A DNA stretch of 59,725 bases, counting the filler. It is 5 parts of 5 records of this genome, joined end to end, with 100 filler letters (N's around TTAATTAATTAA, not from the genome) between each part and the next. Parts side by side here need not be neighbours in the genome. Positions count along the whole stretch, not along the records: positions 1 to 15,403 come from DRR723986_14828; 4 more parts are not named here. One strand, 5' to 3'. The translations under genes and the position numbers were made by a program. Shown in pieces: positions 1-15,403 of this stretch (position 1 is its first letter; each line of letters starts with the position of its first letter). Below the pieces are notes generated by a model, which worked only from the letters and a program-made list of their open reading frames with translations, was not told where the DNA came from and ran no database searches.

Positions 1-1404
1 TGTACATTAAGCATCATTTCAGACACCCATCGGTGAGCCAGTCTGTAGCGACCTCATAGAAAGCCGACGGTCTGAGTTTAAAAACCTTTGACCGTTTTCA
101 CCAATATTGCCAAACACTCGCCCCTTGCTATCCTACGGAGAGGGGCAACGACAATTCCATCTATGTGTTTTCTTATCTTTGTTGTGTTTGACTAGAATTA
201 GGTTTCCTTTTCCTAGGTCTTATTTTGTTTTACATCTGCCTAGCAAAAGTTCGTCCCCTTAAGAATGGGACCTCCGCAAAGAGATACTTCCCGCTAGGGC
301 TAAACCCTATCGGTACATAACACCTAACCCTGTGTTCCAATTGTCCGCCGATAAACCCACAAAGATGGGGCGTTCTTCAATTTGCCTACAAGTTTTTGGG
401 GCCTTCGGATTCCGTCGCAGAAGGATCGCCGAGAGCTTGTGGCCTCTGGCCCTCTTTGCCGGATCCGTTTTCGTTGATTAACTTACACAATACCCGCACG
501 CTAGCTTGTTTTTCTGGTGTCATTTTTGTATGAAAAATTTGATTTTGTAAATAAAATCACAGGGCGTAACTGTTCCGTTTCGTGGTTAACAAGGGATTTA
601 TCCGAAAGTACTCAATAACAATATCTATGTTGAGCGGACGTTTTTTTGAAGAGCTTCAGTCTCCAATGACGAAACTGTAACAGTTGTATCTTTTGTTATA
701 TTCGACTGCGCCAATCCCCGCAAACACTTGCTTCAAAAAAGTCAAATCATCCTGCTGCGACACGAGATATCTAATATTGAATTTTTTTTTGGTGGTTACG
801 TAAGAAATGCTAAAGCAGCCTTCAGCATCCGTAAACCCTGCTATTCATGCGTTTTCCAATGACGGTTCTGCCCGCCCCCAACGAGAAGGGCTCACAGTTA
901 ACAGGTCCGTTTTGTTTGAGTCTGCACCTGTAGGGCGACTGGAACAATAATGATCATTAAATGCATGGATAAATTTTTCTAACTTTCTTTTTGTTTTTGG
1001 TAATACGAACCAACCATTAACAAAGTTTATGATCTTTTTGAGTCCTTCTTCGTCTTGTACAACGAATCTAAAGGTTCTAACACCTTGTTTAACAACACGC
1101 CCAAGGTTAAGTTTCATTTTAATGTAGTAAAGAACGTGAATATTTTGATAACCCTGTGTTATAACAAACTGCAAATCCCCTCTTTTTGAGACTGTAAATG
1201 ATCCGTCGCCTTCAATAAATCCAATGAGTCATTCGTGAAATCACTTTTCAGAGGGAACTGCCTGTGGGTTTCCATACAAAATGCTTTGCGTTTCCGGGAG
1301 TGTTGCGCTTGGCGCAAATTCTATGAGTGCGCCTAGTGGGGGCTGCATACATTTGTGCGTGCAATTGAAGATTTTGTTTGTGGTTTTCATTGGGTTTTGC
1401 TTAT
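1..1404 (-). mobile_element. Group I intron in cox1 (third in window, after ...YQHLF-T), truncated by window start
   Basis: cox1 similarity stops after CAT CTG TTC T. Minus-strand core motifs CTACAGACTGG and TTAATGTACA (P7/S, cut by window edge) lie near positions 1-50. Contains a LAGLIDADG ORF. Confidence 0.85.
386..1404 (-). CDS. Intron-encoded double-motif LAGLIDADG homing endonuclease/maturase, in frame with upstream cox1 exon (code 4)
   Basis: Reading TGA as Trp joins the 1241..1507 and 845..1174 fragments into one frame ending at TAG 386-388. Motifs [12 protein letters not shown] and [12 protein letters not shown]. Confidence 0.9.
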
Positions 1405-1498
1405 AGAACAGATGTTGGTATAATACGGGATCTCCACCTCCTGCTGGGTCGTAGAAGGTTGTATTAAAGTTTCTGTCTGTTAATAACATGGTTATCGC
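1405..1498 (-). CDS. cox1: cytochrome c oxidase subunit 1, exon ([31 protein letters not shown])
   Basis: Universally conserved COX1 peptide. Confidence 0.97.
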
Positions 1499-1879
1499 TA
1501 TGATCAAGGTTTGCGCCCCGGAAACAAAAAGGAGGGCGTAAACACGTCTGCCACTGGAACTAATTTCTTAACAGATTGGACTATATCTTAATAATGCAGC
1601 CTTTTCGACACTTGCTGATGGAGTCTTTGGACTTTTCCATCGCACACGTTCTGGAGGGCTCGCTCTGAACGCTTGCTGTTAGGCCGGCTTGCGGTTATTT
1701 CTGGCGCATAGTCTCTGGGCATGCTCCGCGAAAAGGCGGTCGCTGGCGGAGCTTGCTGCTGATTGACCGCTCGATACATAGCCCATCACTTTTGGGCATG
1801 TCGTAAGAAGGCCGGCATTTTCAGCATATAGACAGATTTGAAGCCGGCGCGAAAGTTCAGAAACTTTGTGTGGGCGAAC
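1499..1879 (-). mobile_element. ORF-less group I intron in cox1 (381 nt), apparent terminal A
   Basis: P7 elements CAGAGACTA and AAGATATAGTCC. P1: exon GCCGGU pairs with IGS GCCGGC (U.G). P10: UUCGC pairs with exon GCGA. Confidence 0.85.
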
Positions 1880-2108
1880 ACCGGCAAAAACAGGTAGAGA
1901 TAACAACAGAAGAAAGGCAGTGATTAGCACAGATCACACGAAAAGCGGCATTTGGTGCATATGCATACCTGGAGCGCGCATATTAAAGATTGTAGTAATA
2001 AAGTTAATTGCACCAAGTATCGATGAAATACCAGCCAAGTGTAAGCTGAAAATAGCTACATCTACCGCTGCTGAAGAGTGCGCTTGAATACTAGCTAACG
2101 GTGGGTAA
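1880..2108 (-). CDS. cox1: cytochrome c oxidase subunit 1, exon ([11 protein letters not shown]...[23 protein letters not shown])
   Basis: Conserved COX1 peptide with TGA at the conserved Trp of LFVWS. Confidence 0.97.
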
Positions 2109-3481
2109 CATTTGTGTTGATAGCCTCAGAGTTATATTACTTATCGCTATACGCTTGCCCTCTCGGGCAAGATCGGACTATACCATCATCATTCACAGGG
2201 ACGAATCGTTTTGAACGGATTTTTCGCATGATACCTTGTACCTTTAATAAATGTTCAAAAGCGAGAGTGTTTCGATGCTTAAGCGACCGCTTTCATATTT
2301 TAAATTCAAATGACTTGATACCAACCAAATTTTCATGAAAATACACAGAAATATTATCAATCGCTCGCTTTTGAGTTGTATCCAGGGAATTAAAGTTATG
2401 TGCGCGGCGATATTTGACTTTAGATTTGATATGCAAGATTCGTTTAATACTTTCTAAAACAATGGGATCCCGTTTTTGCGCGGCAATCCCAAAACCATGT
2501 GCCATTCTTCCGGAAGTGTCTTTCTTGGTTATATAAAAACTTCCCTCCGCCTCGACAAAGCCCACTATTCAAGCTTTCGACATGATTTTTTTTATATCTT
2601 CAACGTCTAAGTTTGTCGGCCAAACGGCTCTCGGGGCTCCCTCGACTCGGCACGCAATTTTTGCTCACACTGGGGATATGTATGTAGAGCACGGCTCTTG
2701 TTTTAATAACGCTCAAATTTGATGGTCCTTTTCGAGTTTTGATCCCTGTGGGTTTTCTAAAATCTCATACACTCTTTTTAAACGTAAATAATAAAAGTAT
2801 TTGGTAGTCAGTAATGGAAATTTGTCAAAAACGGAAAAAATTGTCGTCTGAAATTTCTTTCTGTCCCGAATTAAAAACGATCCCATTTGATTTTTTTTAT
2901 CTATTGTCACAGCCCCAACTCCCAAGTGTTTCTTAATAAAGTATAAAGCTCTTAAATTATACGTACTTAGGGAGATTTTAAAGATTAAACTTCATTTTTG
3001 GTTCTGACAAACAACAGAAAAACAGCCATCGCCGTCCGTCATGCCTACAAATCATTGATAGAAATCGTTTGAATGATGCTCCATGTTAAGTCTCTGATGA
3101 AACGTATGATCCTTGGAAGCAACTGCCCCGTTAGAGGGGGGGGCGTTCAGCGCTCCTTTTGGTTTGAACTGGAGAAGCGTAGCGTGCACGCTCATTGACT
3201 TTGGGTTTTGAGCTTGGGACACGCTCCCGGCTTTTCAAGGCACGTCTCAGGCGGATTGGCTCATAGTAGAGAACATTATTGCTGGCGTTCTTATTATTCG
3301 AGAACACACGCAGTTTCTATTTAGGAAGGCAGAGCAAGAAAAAAAATCCAAGCTTTTCCCGCATCGAATGGAGTTTAAACACGGCTTTTTTAAAGGGATT
3401 CTTGCTCCGACAAGGGGCACACTGCACGCGCCTTTAAGTGACGCTTCGTTCGACCCTGGATTGGAATCCTTAATGCTATAA
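2109..3481 (-). mobile_element. Group I intron in cox1 inserted in GWTV/YPP
   Basis: Follows a U (ACG GT|) and ends in G (AAATG|T TAC CCA). Core motifs CAGAGACTT and GATGGTATAGTCC. Confidence 0.9.
2137..3481 (-). CDS. Intron-encoded double-motif LAGLIDADG endonuclease, in frame with upstream cox1 exon (code 4)
   Basis: Open frame from the exon junction to TAA 2137-2139 when TGA=Trp. Motifs WFVGMTDGDGCF and WIVGFVEAEGSF. Internal ATG at 3084. Confidence 0.9.
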
Positions 3482-14249: not shown

Positions 14250-15045
14250 TATGTAACCCCCTATTTTCATAAGGGCATGGACTATATCTTCAGCCCCTGC
14301 GCGTAAACGCGCAGGGGCGTTAACGTATGATACCTAAGAGGATTTTTCAGGTATCTCAAGCGAAATGCTTTCAGTCTCTACAGGCGGAAAAAGTATAGAT
14401 TGTACGACCAGAGAAGTATTCTTTCGTTTTTTTGAATCTGTAAATTGAGCAACTTTGTCTACTAATTTGCATACCTCTATAAAGTCCTCTTTTGTATCCA
14501 CAGTCTTAACTTGGTCAATGATTTTTAATATTAATTTAGCCAAAGGCCGTTTTATCCGCAAATATGGGTACAGCGCGAGAAGCAACGGCTCAACGAACAC
14601 AGGTCCGGTAACAGTGTATTCGGACATATTATCGTTTCGAATTCTAATAACACCACATTTCAAGAGTTTATGTAATCATAAGATAAATCAATGTCTACTT
14701 TTCTTTTGATAAAAGGTTATAGATACTCGGATTTGAAATTTTAATTTATAGTTTTTTCGGGGAATTATTTGTGATAAAAGACAACCGTCTCCATCGATAA
14801 AACCCGCAAGATAGCTCAAGTCCTGCTCGGACAAGTGTCGAAGCGAGGGCGGAGTCTTTGGTGACGGTTCATTGTTGAATTTTTGCTTTGGCTGTGTCAT
14901 ATTTTGTTCTTAAATTTTCTATACTTAAACCTTCCCTCGGTATTGCCATCCAACCATTTTTGCGTGCGATTGGAGAAGGTTTCACCGATATAAGTTAATG
15001 CTGCTAAGTGCGCCTTGCAGCGCACCAACGCCGTCAGCAAATTTG
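14250..15045 (-). mobile_element. Group I intron in rnl at L2593, apparent terminal A
   Basis: Inserted in AGAACGT|CGTGAG. P1 AACGU/GCGUU. Core motifs TAGAGACTG and AAGATATAGTCC. Confidence 0.87.
14334..14900 (-). CDS. Single-motif LAGLIDADG homing endonuclease (I-CreI-like)
   Basis: YLAGFIDGDGCL. The two ORF-track fragments join via TGA=Trp (RHWFILWL). L2593 is the I-CreI intron site. Confidence 0.9.
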
Positions 15046-15052
15046 ACGTTCT

Positions 15053-15331
15053 CACGTCTTGTTTGGCCTCGCCTTGAGGCGAGGGTTGGACTATATCATC
15101 ATCCTTAAGCAAGCAGGCTGGCGATCGGTGCAAGCTCAATTTAAGGAGTCTCACGGTTGAGTCTCTGAAGATCCTTTGGCAAAAGACAGCAATTTTGCAA
15201 AGTTTCCTGCGGATTTGCCCTCACCCCATGTGTTCAATAATAGGAGGGGTTACGATTGTGAGGGGGGAGCGTTTCCCGCAAATAGTGAGATTTTTTTTGA
15301 TTGCCTTACGGCAAAAAGGGTTCAGAACTCT
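15053..15331 (-). mobile_element. ORF-less group I intron in rnl at L2586 (279 nt)
   Basis: P1 GGGUUU/GAACCC and P10 GUUCU/AGAAC. Core motifs CAGAGACTC and GATGATATAGTCC. Ends in G. Confidence 0.87.
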
Positions 15332-15403
15332 AAACCCAACTCATGTACCACTTTAATGCAGGCGAACAGCCTGACCCTTGGGACCTTCTTCAGCCCCAGG
15401 ATG

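What the first reader, a model, noticed from the sequence alone, without database searches (positions are those of the whole stretch)
1..15403. Gene-rich, code-4 mitochondrial genome of a probably deep-branching or poorly sampled protist
Seen: nad8, cox11, sdh2, sdh4 and a bacterial-type 5S rRNA lie together with cox1, rns and rnl on one strand. TGA occupies conserved Trp positions (sdh2 SYWWN, cox1 GTGWT), and spacers are long. Established: mtDNA-encoded nad8, cox11 and sdh2 occur together only in a few gene-rich mitogenomes such as jakobids (Reclinomonas) and Naegleria, and not in animals or fungi. Inference: ancestral gene content combined with UGA=Trp, heavy intron load and expanded spacers points to an uncommon, possibly uncharacterised lineage. 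The standard-code ORF track shatters all of these genes.
Basis: partly seen in the sequence, partly recalled or inferred. Interest (0 to 1): 0.85.

Follow-up and report, generated by a model that had tools for sequence, protein, structure and literature searches.

The report
Published centrohelid (Marophrys) mitochondrial genome fragment
This is a 15.4-kb piece of the already published mitochondrial genome of the centrohelid protist Marophrys sp. SRT127, so it is not a new lineage, though it does contain an overlooked RNA motif that may explain how its split cox1 gene is joined.

Summary
Window 1-15403 is one contig, the first of five joined by N spacers; the other four are bacterial. Its minus strand carries rnl (partial), rns, sdh4, trnL, sdh2, rrn5, trnM, trnP, cox11, nad8 and three cox1 exons. 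It is read with TGA=Trp and holds six group I introns.

It is not uncharacterised. Six whole proteins are exact entries in UniRef/NCBI nr. Cox1 residues 108-239 are 100% identical to Cox1 of Marophrys sp. SRT127. Three of three measurable introns (1373, 381 and 1260 nt), the GC content (44.85% against 44.7%), table 4 and the split cox1 all match Nishimura et al. 2019 (PMC6425028, AP019310).

One addition comes from this work. That paper found no intron motif beside the trans-spliced cox1_b locus. A group II domain V-VI lies immediately upstream of the cox1_b exon (Rfam RF00029, 34.6 bits, below the family cut-off of 40). It has a bulged A 8 nt before a 3' splice site that completes Trp107. Twelve close unnamed relatives read a GUGYGAC-compatible 5' intron start in the same codon phase. 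Group II-mediated trans-splicing of cox1 is my inference, with probability about 0.75.

The parts
13969..15403 (-). rnl, 3' part, running off the contig end. It holds two group I introns: one at about 15064-15342 (paper's rnl_i7, 279 nt) and one at about 14215-15010 (rnl_i8, 796 nt).
   Evidence: LSU_rRNA_bacteria hit at 14214..13969 covering model positions 2655-2912, and an LSU hit at 15403..15281 cut at its 5' end. RF00028 gives 73.9 bits at 15342..15067 and 26.8 bits at 14671..14258. The intron limits here are approximate and were not measured exactly.
14334..14900 (-). LAGLIDADG_1 homing endonuclease ORF (188 aa) inside the last rnl intron
   Evidence: PF00961, 5.5e-09. The exact 188-aa sequence is in UniRef/NCBI nr.
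10394..13394 (-). rns (small-subunit rRNA), complete, with one intron
   Evidence: RF00177, 938.5 bits, model positions 1-1533.
11334..12593 (-). rns_i1, an insertion of 1260 nt (limits within 1 nt) carrying a LAGLIDADG_2 ORF at 12541..11390 (383 aa)
   Evidence: In the cmscan alignment, 1261 sequence positions face one model position. PF03161, 8.1e-30. The exact 383-aa protein is in UniRef/nr. The paper's Table 1 gives rns_i1 as 1,260 bp with LAGLIDADG_2.
9378..9884 (-). sdh4 (168 aa plus stop)
   Evidence: PF01127 6.7e-09 and PF05328 9.6e-08. The exact protein is in UniRef/nr.
8855..8937 (-). trnL(CAA)
   Evidence: ARAGORN and RF00005 at 59.6 bits.
7710..8495 (-). sdh2 (261 aa plus stop), with 6 TGA Trp codons
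   Evidence: PF13085 and Fer4 families. The exact protein P0001 is in UniRef/nr.
7022..7138 (-). rrn5 (5S rRNA)
   Evidence: RF00001, 38.2 bits, at the cut-off of 38.
6722..6796 (-). trnM(CAU)
6197..6270 (-). trnP(UGG)
4969..5937 (-). cox11 (322 aa plus stop)
   Evidence: PF04442, 1.2e-42. The exact 322-aa protein is in UniRef/nr.
4180..4716 (-). nad8 (178 aa plus stop)
   Evidence: Fer4 families. The exact 178-aa protein is in UniRef/nr.
3558..3751 (-). Proposed 3' half of a split group II intron. The upstream limit is taken from what a relative's RNA contig retains and is not a mapped boundary.
   Evidence: X3 record 19 keeps 3645-3751 but replaces 3752-4178 with 181 other letters. X2 record 11 runs unspliced from the exon to 4181.
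3599..3632 (-). Group II domain V (34 nt), with the AGC triad, a GAAA loop and an AC bulge
   Evidence: RF00029, 34.6 bits, E 0.0011 over the contig and all families. The alignment is and the MFE fold. It is the only hit of my structural matcher in the whole window.
3560..3597 (-). Domain VI helix with a bulged A at 3566. The predicted 3' splice site lies between 3558 and 3557.
   Evidence: MFE fold. The exon limit follows from Cox1 identity starting at 3555 and from Trp107 in the published protein.
3478..3557 (-). cox1_b first exon (last two bases of the Trp107 codon, then residues 108-133)
   Evidence: 100% identical to Marophrys Cox1 residues 108-133.
2105..3477 (-). cox1_i1, group I intron of 1373 nt, with a LAGLIDADG_1 ORF in frame with the upstream exon
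   Evidence: Length equals Table 1. PF00961, 1.9e-27. A joint skipping 1373 nt is seen in RNA runs X2, X3 and X4.
1880..2104 (-). cox1 exon (residues 134-208)
   Evidence: 100% identity.
1499..1879 (-). cox1_i2, group I intron of 381 nt, without an ORF
   Evidence: RF00028, 48.1 bits. The length equals Table 1. A joint skipping 381 nt is seen in X2, X3 and X4.
1405..1498 (-). cox1 exon (residues 209-239 plus the first base of the next codon)
   Evidence: 100% identity. Loose ends at 1405 in X3 and X4 continue with the next Cox1 residues.
1..1404 (-). cox1_i3 (partial), with a double-motif LAGLIDADG_1 ORF ending at 386. The contig stops about 134 nt short of the 1,538-nt intron given in the paper.
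   Evidence: PF00961, 5.8e-22, two stretches. Table 1.

Best explanation
Window 1-15403 is a 15.4-kb fragment of the mitochondrial genome of the centrohelid Marophrys sp. SRT127, or of an organism indistinguishable from it at every protein tested. That genome was published in 2019 as a 113,062-bp circle (AP019310). The fragment is read with UGA=Trp. It encodes ordinary respiratory-chain and ribosomal RNA genes, interrupted by group I introns with LAGLIDADG homing endonucleases. Its cox1 portion is the published 'cox1_b' locus, whose mRNA is completed by trans-splicing to a distant 'cox1_a' exon that is not in this window. I infer that this trans-splicing uses a split group II intron. The 3' half is co-transcribed downstream of nad8 and supplies domain V, domain VI and the branch adenosine. 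The 5' half would follow cox1_a. Shown here: the identity, the genes, the genetic code, the intron sizes, and the presence and placement of the domain V-VI motif. Inferred: that this motif is the working ribozyme core.
For: Identity:
- Sdh2 (261 aa), Nad8 (178), Cox11 (322), Sdh4 (168), the rnl HE (188) and the rns HE (383) are exact, full-length entries of UniRef/NCBI nr. That is 6 of 6 genes, using 6 of the 11 start variants I tried.
- Cox1 residues 108-133, 133/134-208 and 209-239 are 100% identical to the UniRef entry named Marophrys sp. SRT127.
- Introns of 1373, 381 and 1260 nt equal cox1_i1, cox1_i2 and rns_i1 of the paper's Table 1, which is 3 of 3 measured.
- Contig GC is 44.85% against 44.7%.
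- The paper reports table 4, cox11, 5S rRNA and a split cox1. A review lists nad1-11 and sdh2-4.
- No Cox1 residues 1-107 are encoded anywhere in the window.

Group II:
- RF00029 hits 3634..3531 at 34.6 bits, E 0.0011 for 15.4 kb and 4227 families.
- There is no RF00029 hit at E<=10 in the other 44 kb.
- My pairing-based domain V matcher finds 1 site in the 59.7-kb window on both strands. It finds 17 in 832 kb of cox1 loci, all on the cox1 strand.
- The MFE fold of 3640..3550 gives domain V plus a domain VI with a bulged A at 3566, 8 nt before 3558|3557.
- That splice site leaves GG at the start of the exon, which completes Trp107.
- Of the 16 closest cox1_a-type ORFs I fetched, 12 (86-91% identity) read NNISF followed by C, then V/A/T/M (8/2/1/1), then T/S (11/1). 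This corresponds to T|GYGYNACN. All 12 have the Cys codon; 10 of the 12 (V or A) fit GUGYGAC, in the same codon phase.
- P0268 and P0131 are identical for 108 aa and then diverge, CVTG against WLLPPS.
- An RNA contig of a roughly 90% relative has cox1_i1 and cox1_i2 removed but runs unspliced through the motif to the end of nad8.
Against: Identity: the nucleotide record AP019310 could not be fetched, so DNA-level identity is untested. A conspecific environmental population cannot be told apart from the original strain.

Group II:
- The Rfam score is below the family's cut-off (34.6 against 40).
- Domain V has one U-C mismatch.
- No domain I-IV model matched 3400-4250 at E<=10.
- The domain VI helix is lost in the MFE fold of a longer 235-nt stretch, and that fold is not better than shuffles (z -0.75). 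The short fold has only z -2.24.
- The authors report that RNAweasel and Infernal found no group I or group II motif beside either cox1 locus.
- The 5' evidence comes from unnamed relatives at the protein level, not from Marophrys DNA.
- Two of the 12 relatives have T or M at the second position, which implies A rather than G at intron base 3.
Confidence: 0.93

Rival explanations
1. The contig comes from an uncharacterised, deep-branching protist lineage whose mitogenome has not been described.
For: The closest named Sdh2 proteins, apart from the window's own entry, are jakobid ones at only 68-72% identity. The gene content is rare.
Against: Six exact whole proteins are in UniRef/nr. Cox1 exons are 100% identical to the named Marophrys sp. 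SRT127 entry. Three intron lengths, the GC content, the code and the split cox1 all match PMC6425028.
Confidence: 0.02
2. The domain V-VI look-alike upstream of cox1_b is a chance match or a dead relic. On this reading, cox1 trans-splicing in this mitochondrion uses a fragmented group I intron, as proposed for nad5 in the same genome, or some other unknown route.
For: All 19 annotated introns of this genome are group I, and nad5 is modelled as group I trans-splicing. The authors found no group II motif. The Rfam score is below the cut-off. No domains I-IV were detected.
Against: No group I hit in 3400-4250 at E<=10. The motif's E-value is 0.0011 before its position is taken into account. Domain V ends 41 nt before the inferred exon start, with a bulged A at the canonical distance. 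Relatives conserve LQR|LLPPS at the acceptor and a GUGYGAC-compatible donor. Controls were clean.
Confidence: 0.22
3. The contig is a nuclear or bacterial-bin copy of mitochondrial DNA, or an alphaproteobacterial fragment, and not a working mitochondrial genome.
For: It sits among bacterial contigs in the window.
Against: The contigs are merely concatenated with N spacers. All reading frames are intact only under TGA=Trp, with 25 TGA Trp codons. There are group I introns in the rRNA genes and in cox1. RNA contigs show the two cox1 introns spliced out at exactly these limits in 3 runs of 2 studies.
Confidence: 0.02

Closest known systems
Mitochondrial genome of Marophrys sp. SRT127 (Nishimura et al. 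2019, Sci Rep 9:4850, PMC6425028; AP019310)
   Same: Exact proteins, Cox1 exon identity, intron lengths of 1373, 381 and 1260 nt, GC about 44.7%, table 4, cox11/nad8/sdh2/sdh4/rrn5, LAGLIDADG types per intron, and a cox1 lacking its first 107 codons at this locus.
   Different: Only 15.4 kb of 113 kb is present. The fragment is found as a separate contig among bacterial contigs. DNA-level identity was not tested. The paper reports no intron motif beside cox1_b, whereas a sub-threshold group II domain V-VI is found here.
Gene-rich mitogenomes of jakobids, Naegleria and Diphylleia
   Same: They encode nad8, cox11 and sdh2-4 in the mtDNA (Diphylleia passages; jakobid Sdh2 hits).
   Different: Sdh2 is only 68-72% identical to the jakobid proteins. 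The organism here is a centrohelid (Haptista). The fragment uses TGA=Trp and has a heavy load of group I introns.
[quoted passage not shown] 2016, PMC4779616)
   Same: cox1 is in scattered pieces, RT-PCR shows joined mRNA, and the flanks are modelled as group II halves broken in domain IV (passages).
   Different: Diphylleia has four pieces and this genome has two. Here only the 3' half was seen. No domain IV pairing could be tested.
Trans-spliced cox1 of the haptophyte Isochrysis galbana (Fang et al. 2022, PMC9551565)
   Same: A member of Haptista with cox1 in two distant exons and a 44-nt putative group II segment adjacent to exon b (section read).
   Different: The split position in Cox1 is not given in the section I read, so homology of the site is untested. 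The mechanism is left open there as well.
Cis-spliced group II intron with an exon-fused 796-aa ORF in cox1 of a soil metagenome contig (locus L032)
   Same: A canonical GUGCG start and domain V-VI in the same NNISFW|LLPPS stretch of cox1.
   Different: It is inserted 3 nt further downstream, after the first base of Leu108. It is contiguous, about 2.5 kb long and carries an ORF. The host Cox1 is only 63-76% identical.

Membership tests
Marophrys sp. SRT127 mitochondrial genome (PMC6425028) | Protein sequences identical to the deposited annotation | tested here: met
   6 of 6 genes have an exact full-length entry in UniRef/nr. Cox1 residues 108-239 are 100% identical to the named entry P0126.
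Marophrys sp. SRT127 mitochondrial genome (PMC6425028) | Intron lengths and endonuclease types as in Table 1 | tested here: met
   1373 nt (LAGLIDADG_1, exon-fused), 381 nt (no ORF) and 1260 nt (LAGLIDADG_2), which is 3 of 3 measured exactly. rnl_i7 and rnl_i8 are only approximately consistent.
Marophrys sp. SRT127 mitochondrial genome (PMC6425028) | GC 44.7%, UGA=Trp, cox1 split into cox1_a and cox1_b | tested here: met
   GC 44.85%. 25 TGA Trp codons. No Cox1 residues 1-107 in the window.
Marophrys sp. SRT127 mitochondrial genome (PMC6425028) | Nucleotide identity and gene order against AP019310 | not testable with these tools
   The record is in none of the collections on hand. Figure 1 of the paper is not held as text.
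Group II intron (here: 3' half of a trans-spliced one) | Domain V: 34-nt hairpin with AGC triad, 2-nt bulge and GNRA loop | tested here: met
   3632..3599 has 13 of 14 pairs, AGC, an AC bulge and a GAAA loop.
Group II intron (here: 3' half of a trans-spliced one) | Domain VI with a bulged adenosine 7-8 nt before the 3' splice site, and an intron ending in AY | tested here: met
   The bulged A at 3566 is followed by 8 nt ending in AC at 3558. The exon then starts with GG, completing Trp107. The helix is not kept in the longer fold.
Group II intron (here: 3' half of a trans-spliced one) | Rfam RF00029 gathering score | tested here: not met
   34.6 bits against a cut-off of 40. E is 0.0011 over the contig.
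Group II intron (here: 3' half of a trans-spliced one) | 5' end GUGYG | tested here: inconclusive
   The cox1_a flank of this genome is not in the window. Twelve relatives read NNISF followed by Cys; 10 of them go on with V/A then T/S, compatible with T|GUGYGAC, but at the protein level only.
Group II intron (here: 3' half of a trans-spliced one) | Domains I-IV, EBS-IBS pairing, intermolecular domain IV helix | tested here: inconclusive
   No domain I-IV family hit in 3400-4250. These parts are expected on the unseen 5' half if the break is in domain IV.
Group II intron (here: 3' half of a trans-spliced one) | Branched (lariat or Y) splicing product | not testable with these tools
   Only assembled contigs of public runs were available.
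Group I introns with LAGLIDADG homing endonucleases | Group I core plus LAGLIDADG ORF, spliced from RNA | tested here: met
   RF00028 gives 73.9, 48.1, 26.8 and 25.4 bits for four introns, of which only the first reaches the cut-off of 50. There are four LAGLIDADG ORFs. Joints of 1373 and 381 nt are seen in 3 RNA runs.
Alphaproteobacterial genome fragment | Standard code, no organellar introns | tested here: not met
   The genes are open only with TGA=Trp. There are introns in the rRNA genes and in cox1.

The most novel reading that the evidence does not exclude
The cox1 mRNA of Marophrys is assembled by a split group II intron, the only group II element in a genome annotated with 19 group I introns. 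This one mitochondrion would then use both group I-mediated (nad5) and group II-mediated (cox1) trans-splicing. The intron sits at the same codon phase in a clade of at least a dozen unnamed environmental relatives. Together with Isochrysis, this would make group II trans-splicing of cox1 a recurring feature of Haptista.
Probability: 0.75. Interest if true: 0.4.

Novelty: already known. Interest (0 to 1): 0.22.

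Why it matters
For the scan, this removes an apparent 'new deep lineage': the contig is a known centrohelid mitogenome that travels with bacterial contigs. For organelle biology, the useful residue is small but concrete. The 2019 paper left the cox1 trans-splicing mechanism open, and the domain V-VI motif, its exact register with the exon and the donor signature in relatives give a specific hypothesis. That hypothesis can be checked in minutes against AP019310 and at the bench by branch mapping.

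Tried and rejected
- **Whole genome.** A request for the window's genome failed because none is held.
- **Metagenome scan.** I searched with the cox1/endonuclease ORF P0215, hoping to fetch the 16.7-kb relative contig. It returned 80 loci of other taxa (40-65% identity). The closest (L001, L012, L074, L078) are 1.2-2.2 kb (L078 2.2 kb) and do not reach residue 107.
- **Pattern scans.** A degenerate domain V pattern gave 0 hits in genome contigs and 0 in viral contigs.
- **P0003.** This high-scoring unnamed Sdh2 hit proved to be a bacterial Devosia-type SdhB, so that genome-contig scan was wasted.
- **P0129 in viral contigs.** It gave one irrelevant locus.
- **Read laying.** No loose end at 3557/3558 is among the 24 loose ends shown of 248. 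The trans-spliced junction was therefore neither seen nor excluded. Most differences of the relatives' contigs within domains V-VI were not printed (396 rows withheld), so no covariation count was possible.
- **Longer fold.** Folding 3790..3556 (235 nt) gave no significant structure (z -0.75).
- **Spacer ORFs.** Six ORFs in the spacers had no Pfam family at E<=0.01. sdh3 was not found on this contig.
- **Earlier scan notes.** None concern this genome or lineage.
- **CM splice site.** The 3' splice site placed by the covariance model (3531|3530) was rejected, because residues 108-115 of the published protein are encoded at 3555-3532.
- **Supplements.** The supplementary files of PMC6425028 (Fig. 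S1, Table S2) were not open. They may hold the cDNA junction.

Full report
**What the window is.** The 59,725-base window is not one molecule. Runs of 44 N flanking a 12-letter spacer divide it into five contigs: 1-15403, 15504-24850, 24951-31458, 31559-47140 and 47241-59725. The finding covers exactly the first contig. Base composition differs sharply between contigs: 44.9%, 32.5%, 63.2%, 56.9% and 55.2% GC. The other four contigs encode ordinary bacterial proteins under the standard code. These include a LacI regulator, a SusC-like TonB receptor, MFS, PfkB and GH13; a Na/H exchanger and SelO; IleRS; and Planctomycete-type DUF1585-1595 and SdrD_B repeat proteins.

**Checking the observation.**
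- Rfam finds a complete rns (13394..10394, 938.5 bits), the 3' end of rnl, three tRNAs and a 5S rRNA at the family cut-off. ARAGORN names the tRNAs Pro(UGG), Met(CAU) and Leu(CAA).
- Under table 4 the ORFs give Nad8, Cox11, Sdh2, Sdh4 and four LAGLIDADG endonucleases. Under table 11 the same genes fall into pieces.
- Intergenic spacers are 225-622 nt.

**Identity.**
- A search with Sdh2 found the window's own 261-aa protein as an existing entry. The closest named proteins were jakobid ones at only 68-72% identity. An exact look-up showed that entry to be in UniRef and NCBI nr.
- A search with one cox1 exon gave Cox1 of Marophrys sp. SRT127, a centrohelid, as the best named hit.
- Exact matching then showed that Cox1 residues 108-133, 133/134-208 and 209-239 of that protein are encoded without a single difference at 3555..3478, 2107..1880 and 1498..1406.
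- Five further whole proteins are also exact entries of UniRef/nr: Nad8 178 aa, Cox11 322 aa, Sdh4 168 aa, the rnl endonuclease 188 aa and the rns endonuclease 383 aa. Five alternative start choices were not found.
- I read the Results (first of three parts), Methods, plasmid and data sections of the describing paper, Nishimura et al. 2019. It reports a 113,062-bp circle, 44.7% GC, UGA=Trp, cox11, a 5S rRNA, 19 group I introns and a cox1 gene split into distant cox1_a and cox1_b loci joined by trans-splicing.
- The introns I could measure are 1373 nt and 381 nt in cox1 and a 1260-nt insertion in rns. These equal cox1_i1, cox1_i2 and rns_i1 of the paper's Table 1, with the same endonuclease types.
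- The contig's GC is 44.85%. No residue 1-107 of Cox1 is encoded anywhere in the window, as expected for cox1_b.
- A review lists nad1-11 and sdh2-4 for this genome (passages).

I could not fetch AP019310, so DNA-level identity and gene order remain untested.

**How it works.** The genes are standard: complex I, II and IV subunits, a complex IV assembly factor, rRNAs and tRNAs. The cis introns are group I. RF00028 scores 73.9, 48.1, 26.8 and 25.4 bits, of which only the first is above the cut-off. Four carry LAGLIDADG ORFs. Contigs of three public RNA runs from two studies carry joints that skip exactly 1373 and 381 nt at the exon limits. These introns are therefore removed from RNA, in this organism or in close relatives, since the contigs were laid at 85% likeness or more.

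- A permissive Rfam scan of the contig gives one unexpected hit: RF00029 (group II domains V-VI) at 3634..3531, 34.6 bits. That is below the cut-off of 40, with E 0.0011 for the contig and all 4227 families.
- Domain V (3632..3599) has the AGC triad, a GAAA loop, an AC bulge and 13 of 14 pairs.
- The model's placement of domain VI overruns the exon, so I folded 3640..3550. The minimum-energy structure is domain V, one linker base, and a helix with a bulged A at 3566, followed by 8 nt ending in AC at 3558 (dG -30.2, z -2.24).
- A splice site at 3558|3557 leaves GG before the Leu108 codon at 3555. This is what is needed if cox1_a ends with the T of the Trp107 codon.
- Controls were clean. There is no RF00029 hit at E<=10 in the other 44 kb. 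A simple pairing-based domain V matcher finds this one site in the whole window. It finds 17 sites in 832 kb of cox1 loci from metagenomes, all 17 on the cox1 strand.

**The donor side.** The cox1_a locus is not in the window; the paper places it in a 7.6-kb inverted repeat.
- I searched the protein collection with Cox1 residues 1-107 and fetched the 16 best of the 120 listed.
- The 12 closest (86-91% identity, 114-155 aa, some on contigs of 10-58 kb) all stop being Cox1 after NNISF. They continue with C, then V (8), A (2), T (1) or M (1), then T (11) or S (1).
- In nucleotides this is TTY T|GY GYN ACN. All 12 have the Cys codon (T|GY); the 10 with V or A then fit GUGYGAC, the group II start, and the exon ends on the same T that the acceptor side requires. 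The 2 with T or M imply A, not G, at intron base 3.
- One of them, P0268, is identical for 108 residues to P0131, which continues WLLPPS. These look like the unspliced and spliced forms of one gene.
- Four cox1_b-type ORFs of relatives begin ..SYLQR|LLPPS, and the window reads ..HLQR|LLPPS.
- The four less similar ORFs fetched read straight through, or diverge only after the W.

**Transcription of the 3' half.** One RNA contig (X2, record 11, 916 nt; 38 differences and 69 gap letters over 3479-4181) has both cis introns removed, yet continues unspliced through domains VI and V to the end of nad8. Another (X3, record 19) keeps 3645-3751 but has 181 unrelated letters in place of 3752-4178. This suggests that the conserved half-intron is roughly 3558-3751. 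Assembled contigs cannot prove a single transcript, so I treat this as consistent and not as decisive.

**Weaknesses of the group II reading.**
- The Rfam score is below the cut-off.
- Domain V has one U-C mismatch.
- No domain I-IV model matched the flank.
- The longer fold is not better than shuffles and loses domain VI.
- The donor evidence is at the protein level and comes from unnamed relatives.
- Two of the 12 relatives deviate at intron base 3.
- I saw no trans-spliced junction in the read tables (24 of 248 loose ends shown).

I put the group II reading at about 0.75. The main rival is a chance match or relic, with some other mechanism doing the splicing.

**Comparison with the literature.**
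- Group II trans-splicing of cox1 is documented in Diphylleia rotans, with breaks in domain IV (passages).
- In the haptophyte Isochrysis galbana, cox1 is trans-spliced and a 44-nt putative group II segment lies next to exon b, with the mechanism left open (section read).
- Eight papers in the library hold 'Marophrys', 'group II' and 'trans-splicing' together. I looked at the Marophrys passages of seven. None assigns a group II intron to the Marophrys cox1. The eighth, PMC6492006, a January 2019 classification paper, I did not open. Subscription journals are not covered by the library.
- A soil-metagenome locus, L032, has a contiguous group II intron with a 796-aa exon-fused ORF just 3 nt downstream of this site. 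This stretch of cox1 is therefore a known kind of group II target, but that intron is not shown to be homologous to the one proposed here.

**Verdict.** The finding itself is already known. The group II motif is a modest, testable addition to a published genome.

Noticed in passing
window 15404-15503, 24851-24950, 31459-31558, 47141-47240: The window is five separate contigs joined by N44 plus a 12-letter spacer plus N44. Only the first is mitochondrial. Any reading that spans these joints would be an artefact.
   Followed up: yes
window 15504-24850: A 9,347-nt contig with 32.5% GC has an identical 26-nt stretch at both ends, which could mean a circular assembly path or a repeat. It carries LacI, a SusC-like TonB receptor with a CarboxypepD_reg domain, a glutaredoxin-like ORF, MFS, PfkB kinase and a GH13-like enzyme. 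This looks like a Bacteroidota-type sugar utilisation locus.
   Followed up: partly
window 47241-59725: This contig encodes a 906-aa protein with the Planctomycete-type DUF1585/1587/1588/1592/1595 set and a 1528-aa SdrD_B / FG-GAP repeat protein. It probably comes from a Planctomycetota-like bacterium.
   Followed up: no
window 3556-3557: The Trp107 codon split by the proposed intron would be TGG, whereas 25 of 29 Trp codons counted on this contig are TGA. The relatives' conserved R (CGN) before LLPPS fits a constraint on these bases from the splice site.
   Followed up: no
proteins P0263-P0274, P0128-P0130, P0135, P0131: At least a dozen unnamed environmental relatives (86-91% identity in Cox1 1-107) interrupt cox1 in the same codon phase. 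Some sit on contigs of 10-58 kb. Whether their intron is in cis or in trans could not be seen.
   Followed up: partly
runs X2-X4 on window 1-9000: Freshwater and 'outdoor' metatranscriptome contigs roughly 90% identical to this marine centrohelid's mtDNA carry the same two cox1 introns spliced out. Related centrohelids with the same intron set therefore occur outside the sea. This rests on small shares of the query, laid once.
   Followed up: partly
locus L032 about 210-2690: A soil metagenome cox1 carries a roughly 2.5-kb group II intron starting GUGCG, with a 796-aa ORF fused to the upstream exon. It is inserted after the first base of the Leu108 codon, 3 nt from the site discussed here.
   Followed up: partly
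window 8995-9555, 9835-10374, 6248-6679, 7316-7774 (minus strand): ORFs of 143-186 aa under table 4 in the long spacers have no Pfam family at E<=0.01, and the one exact look-up tried (8998-9555) is not in the protein collection. They are probably chance frames in GC-moderate spacers. sdh3 is not on this contig.
   Followed up: partly
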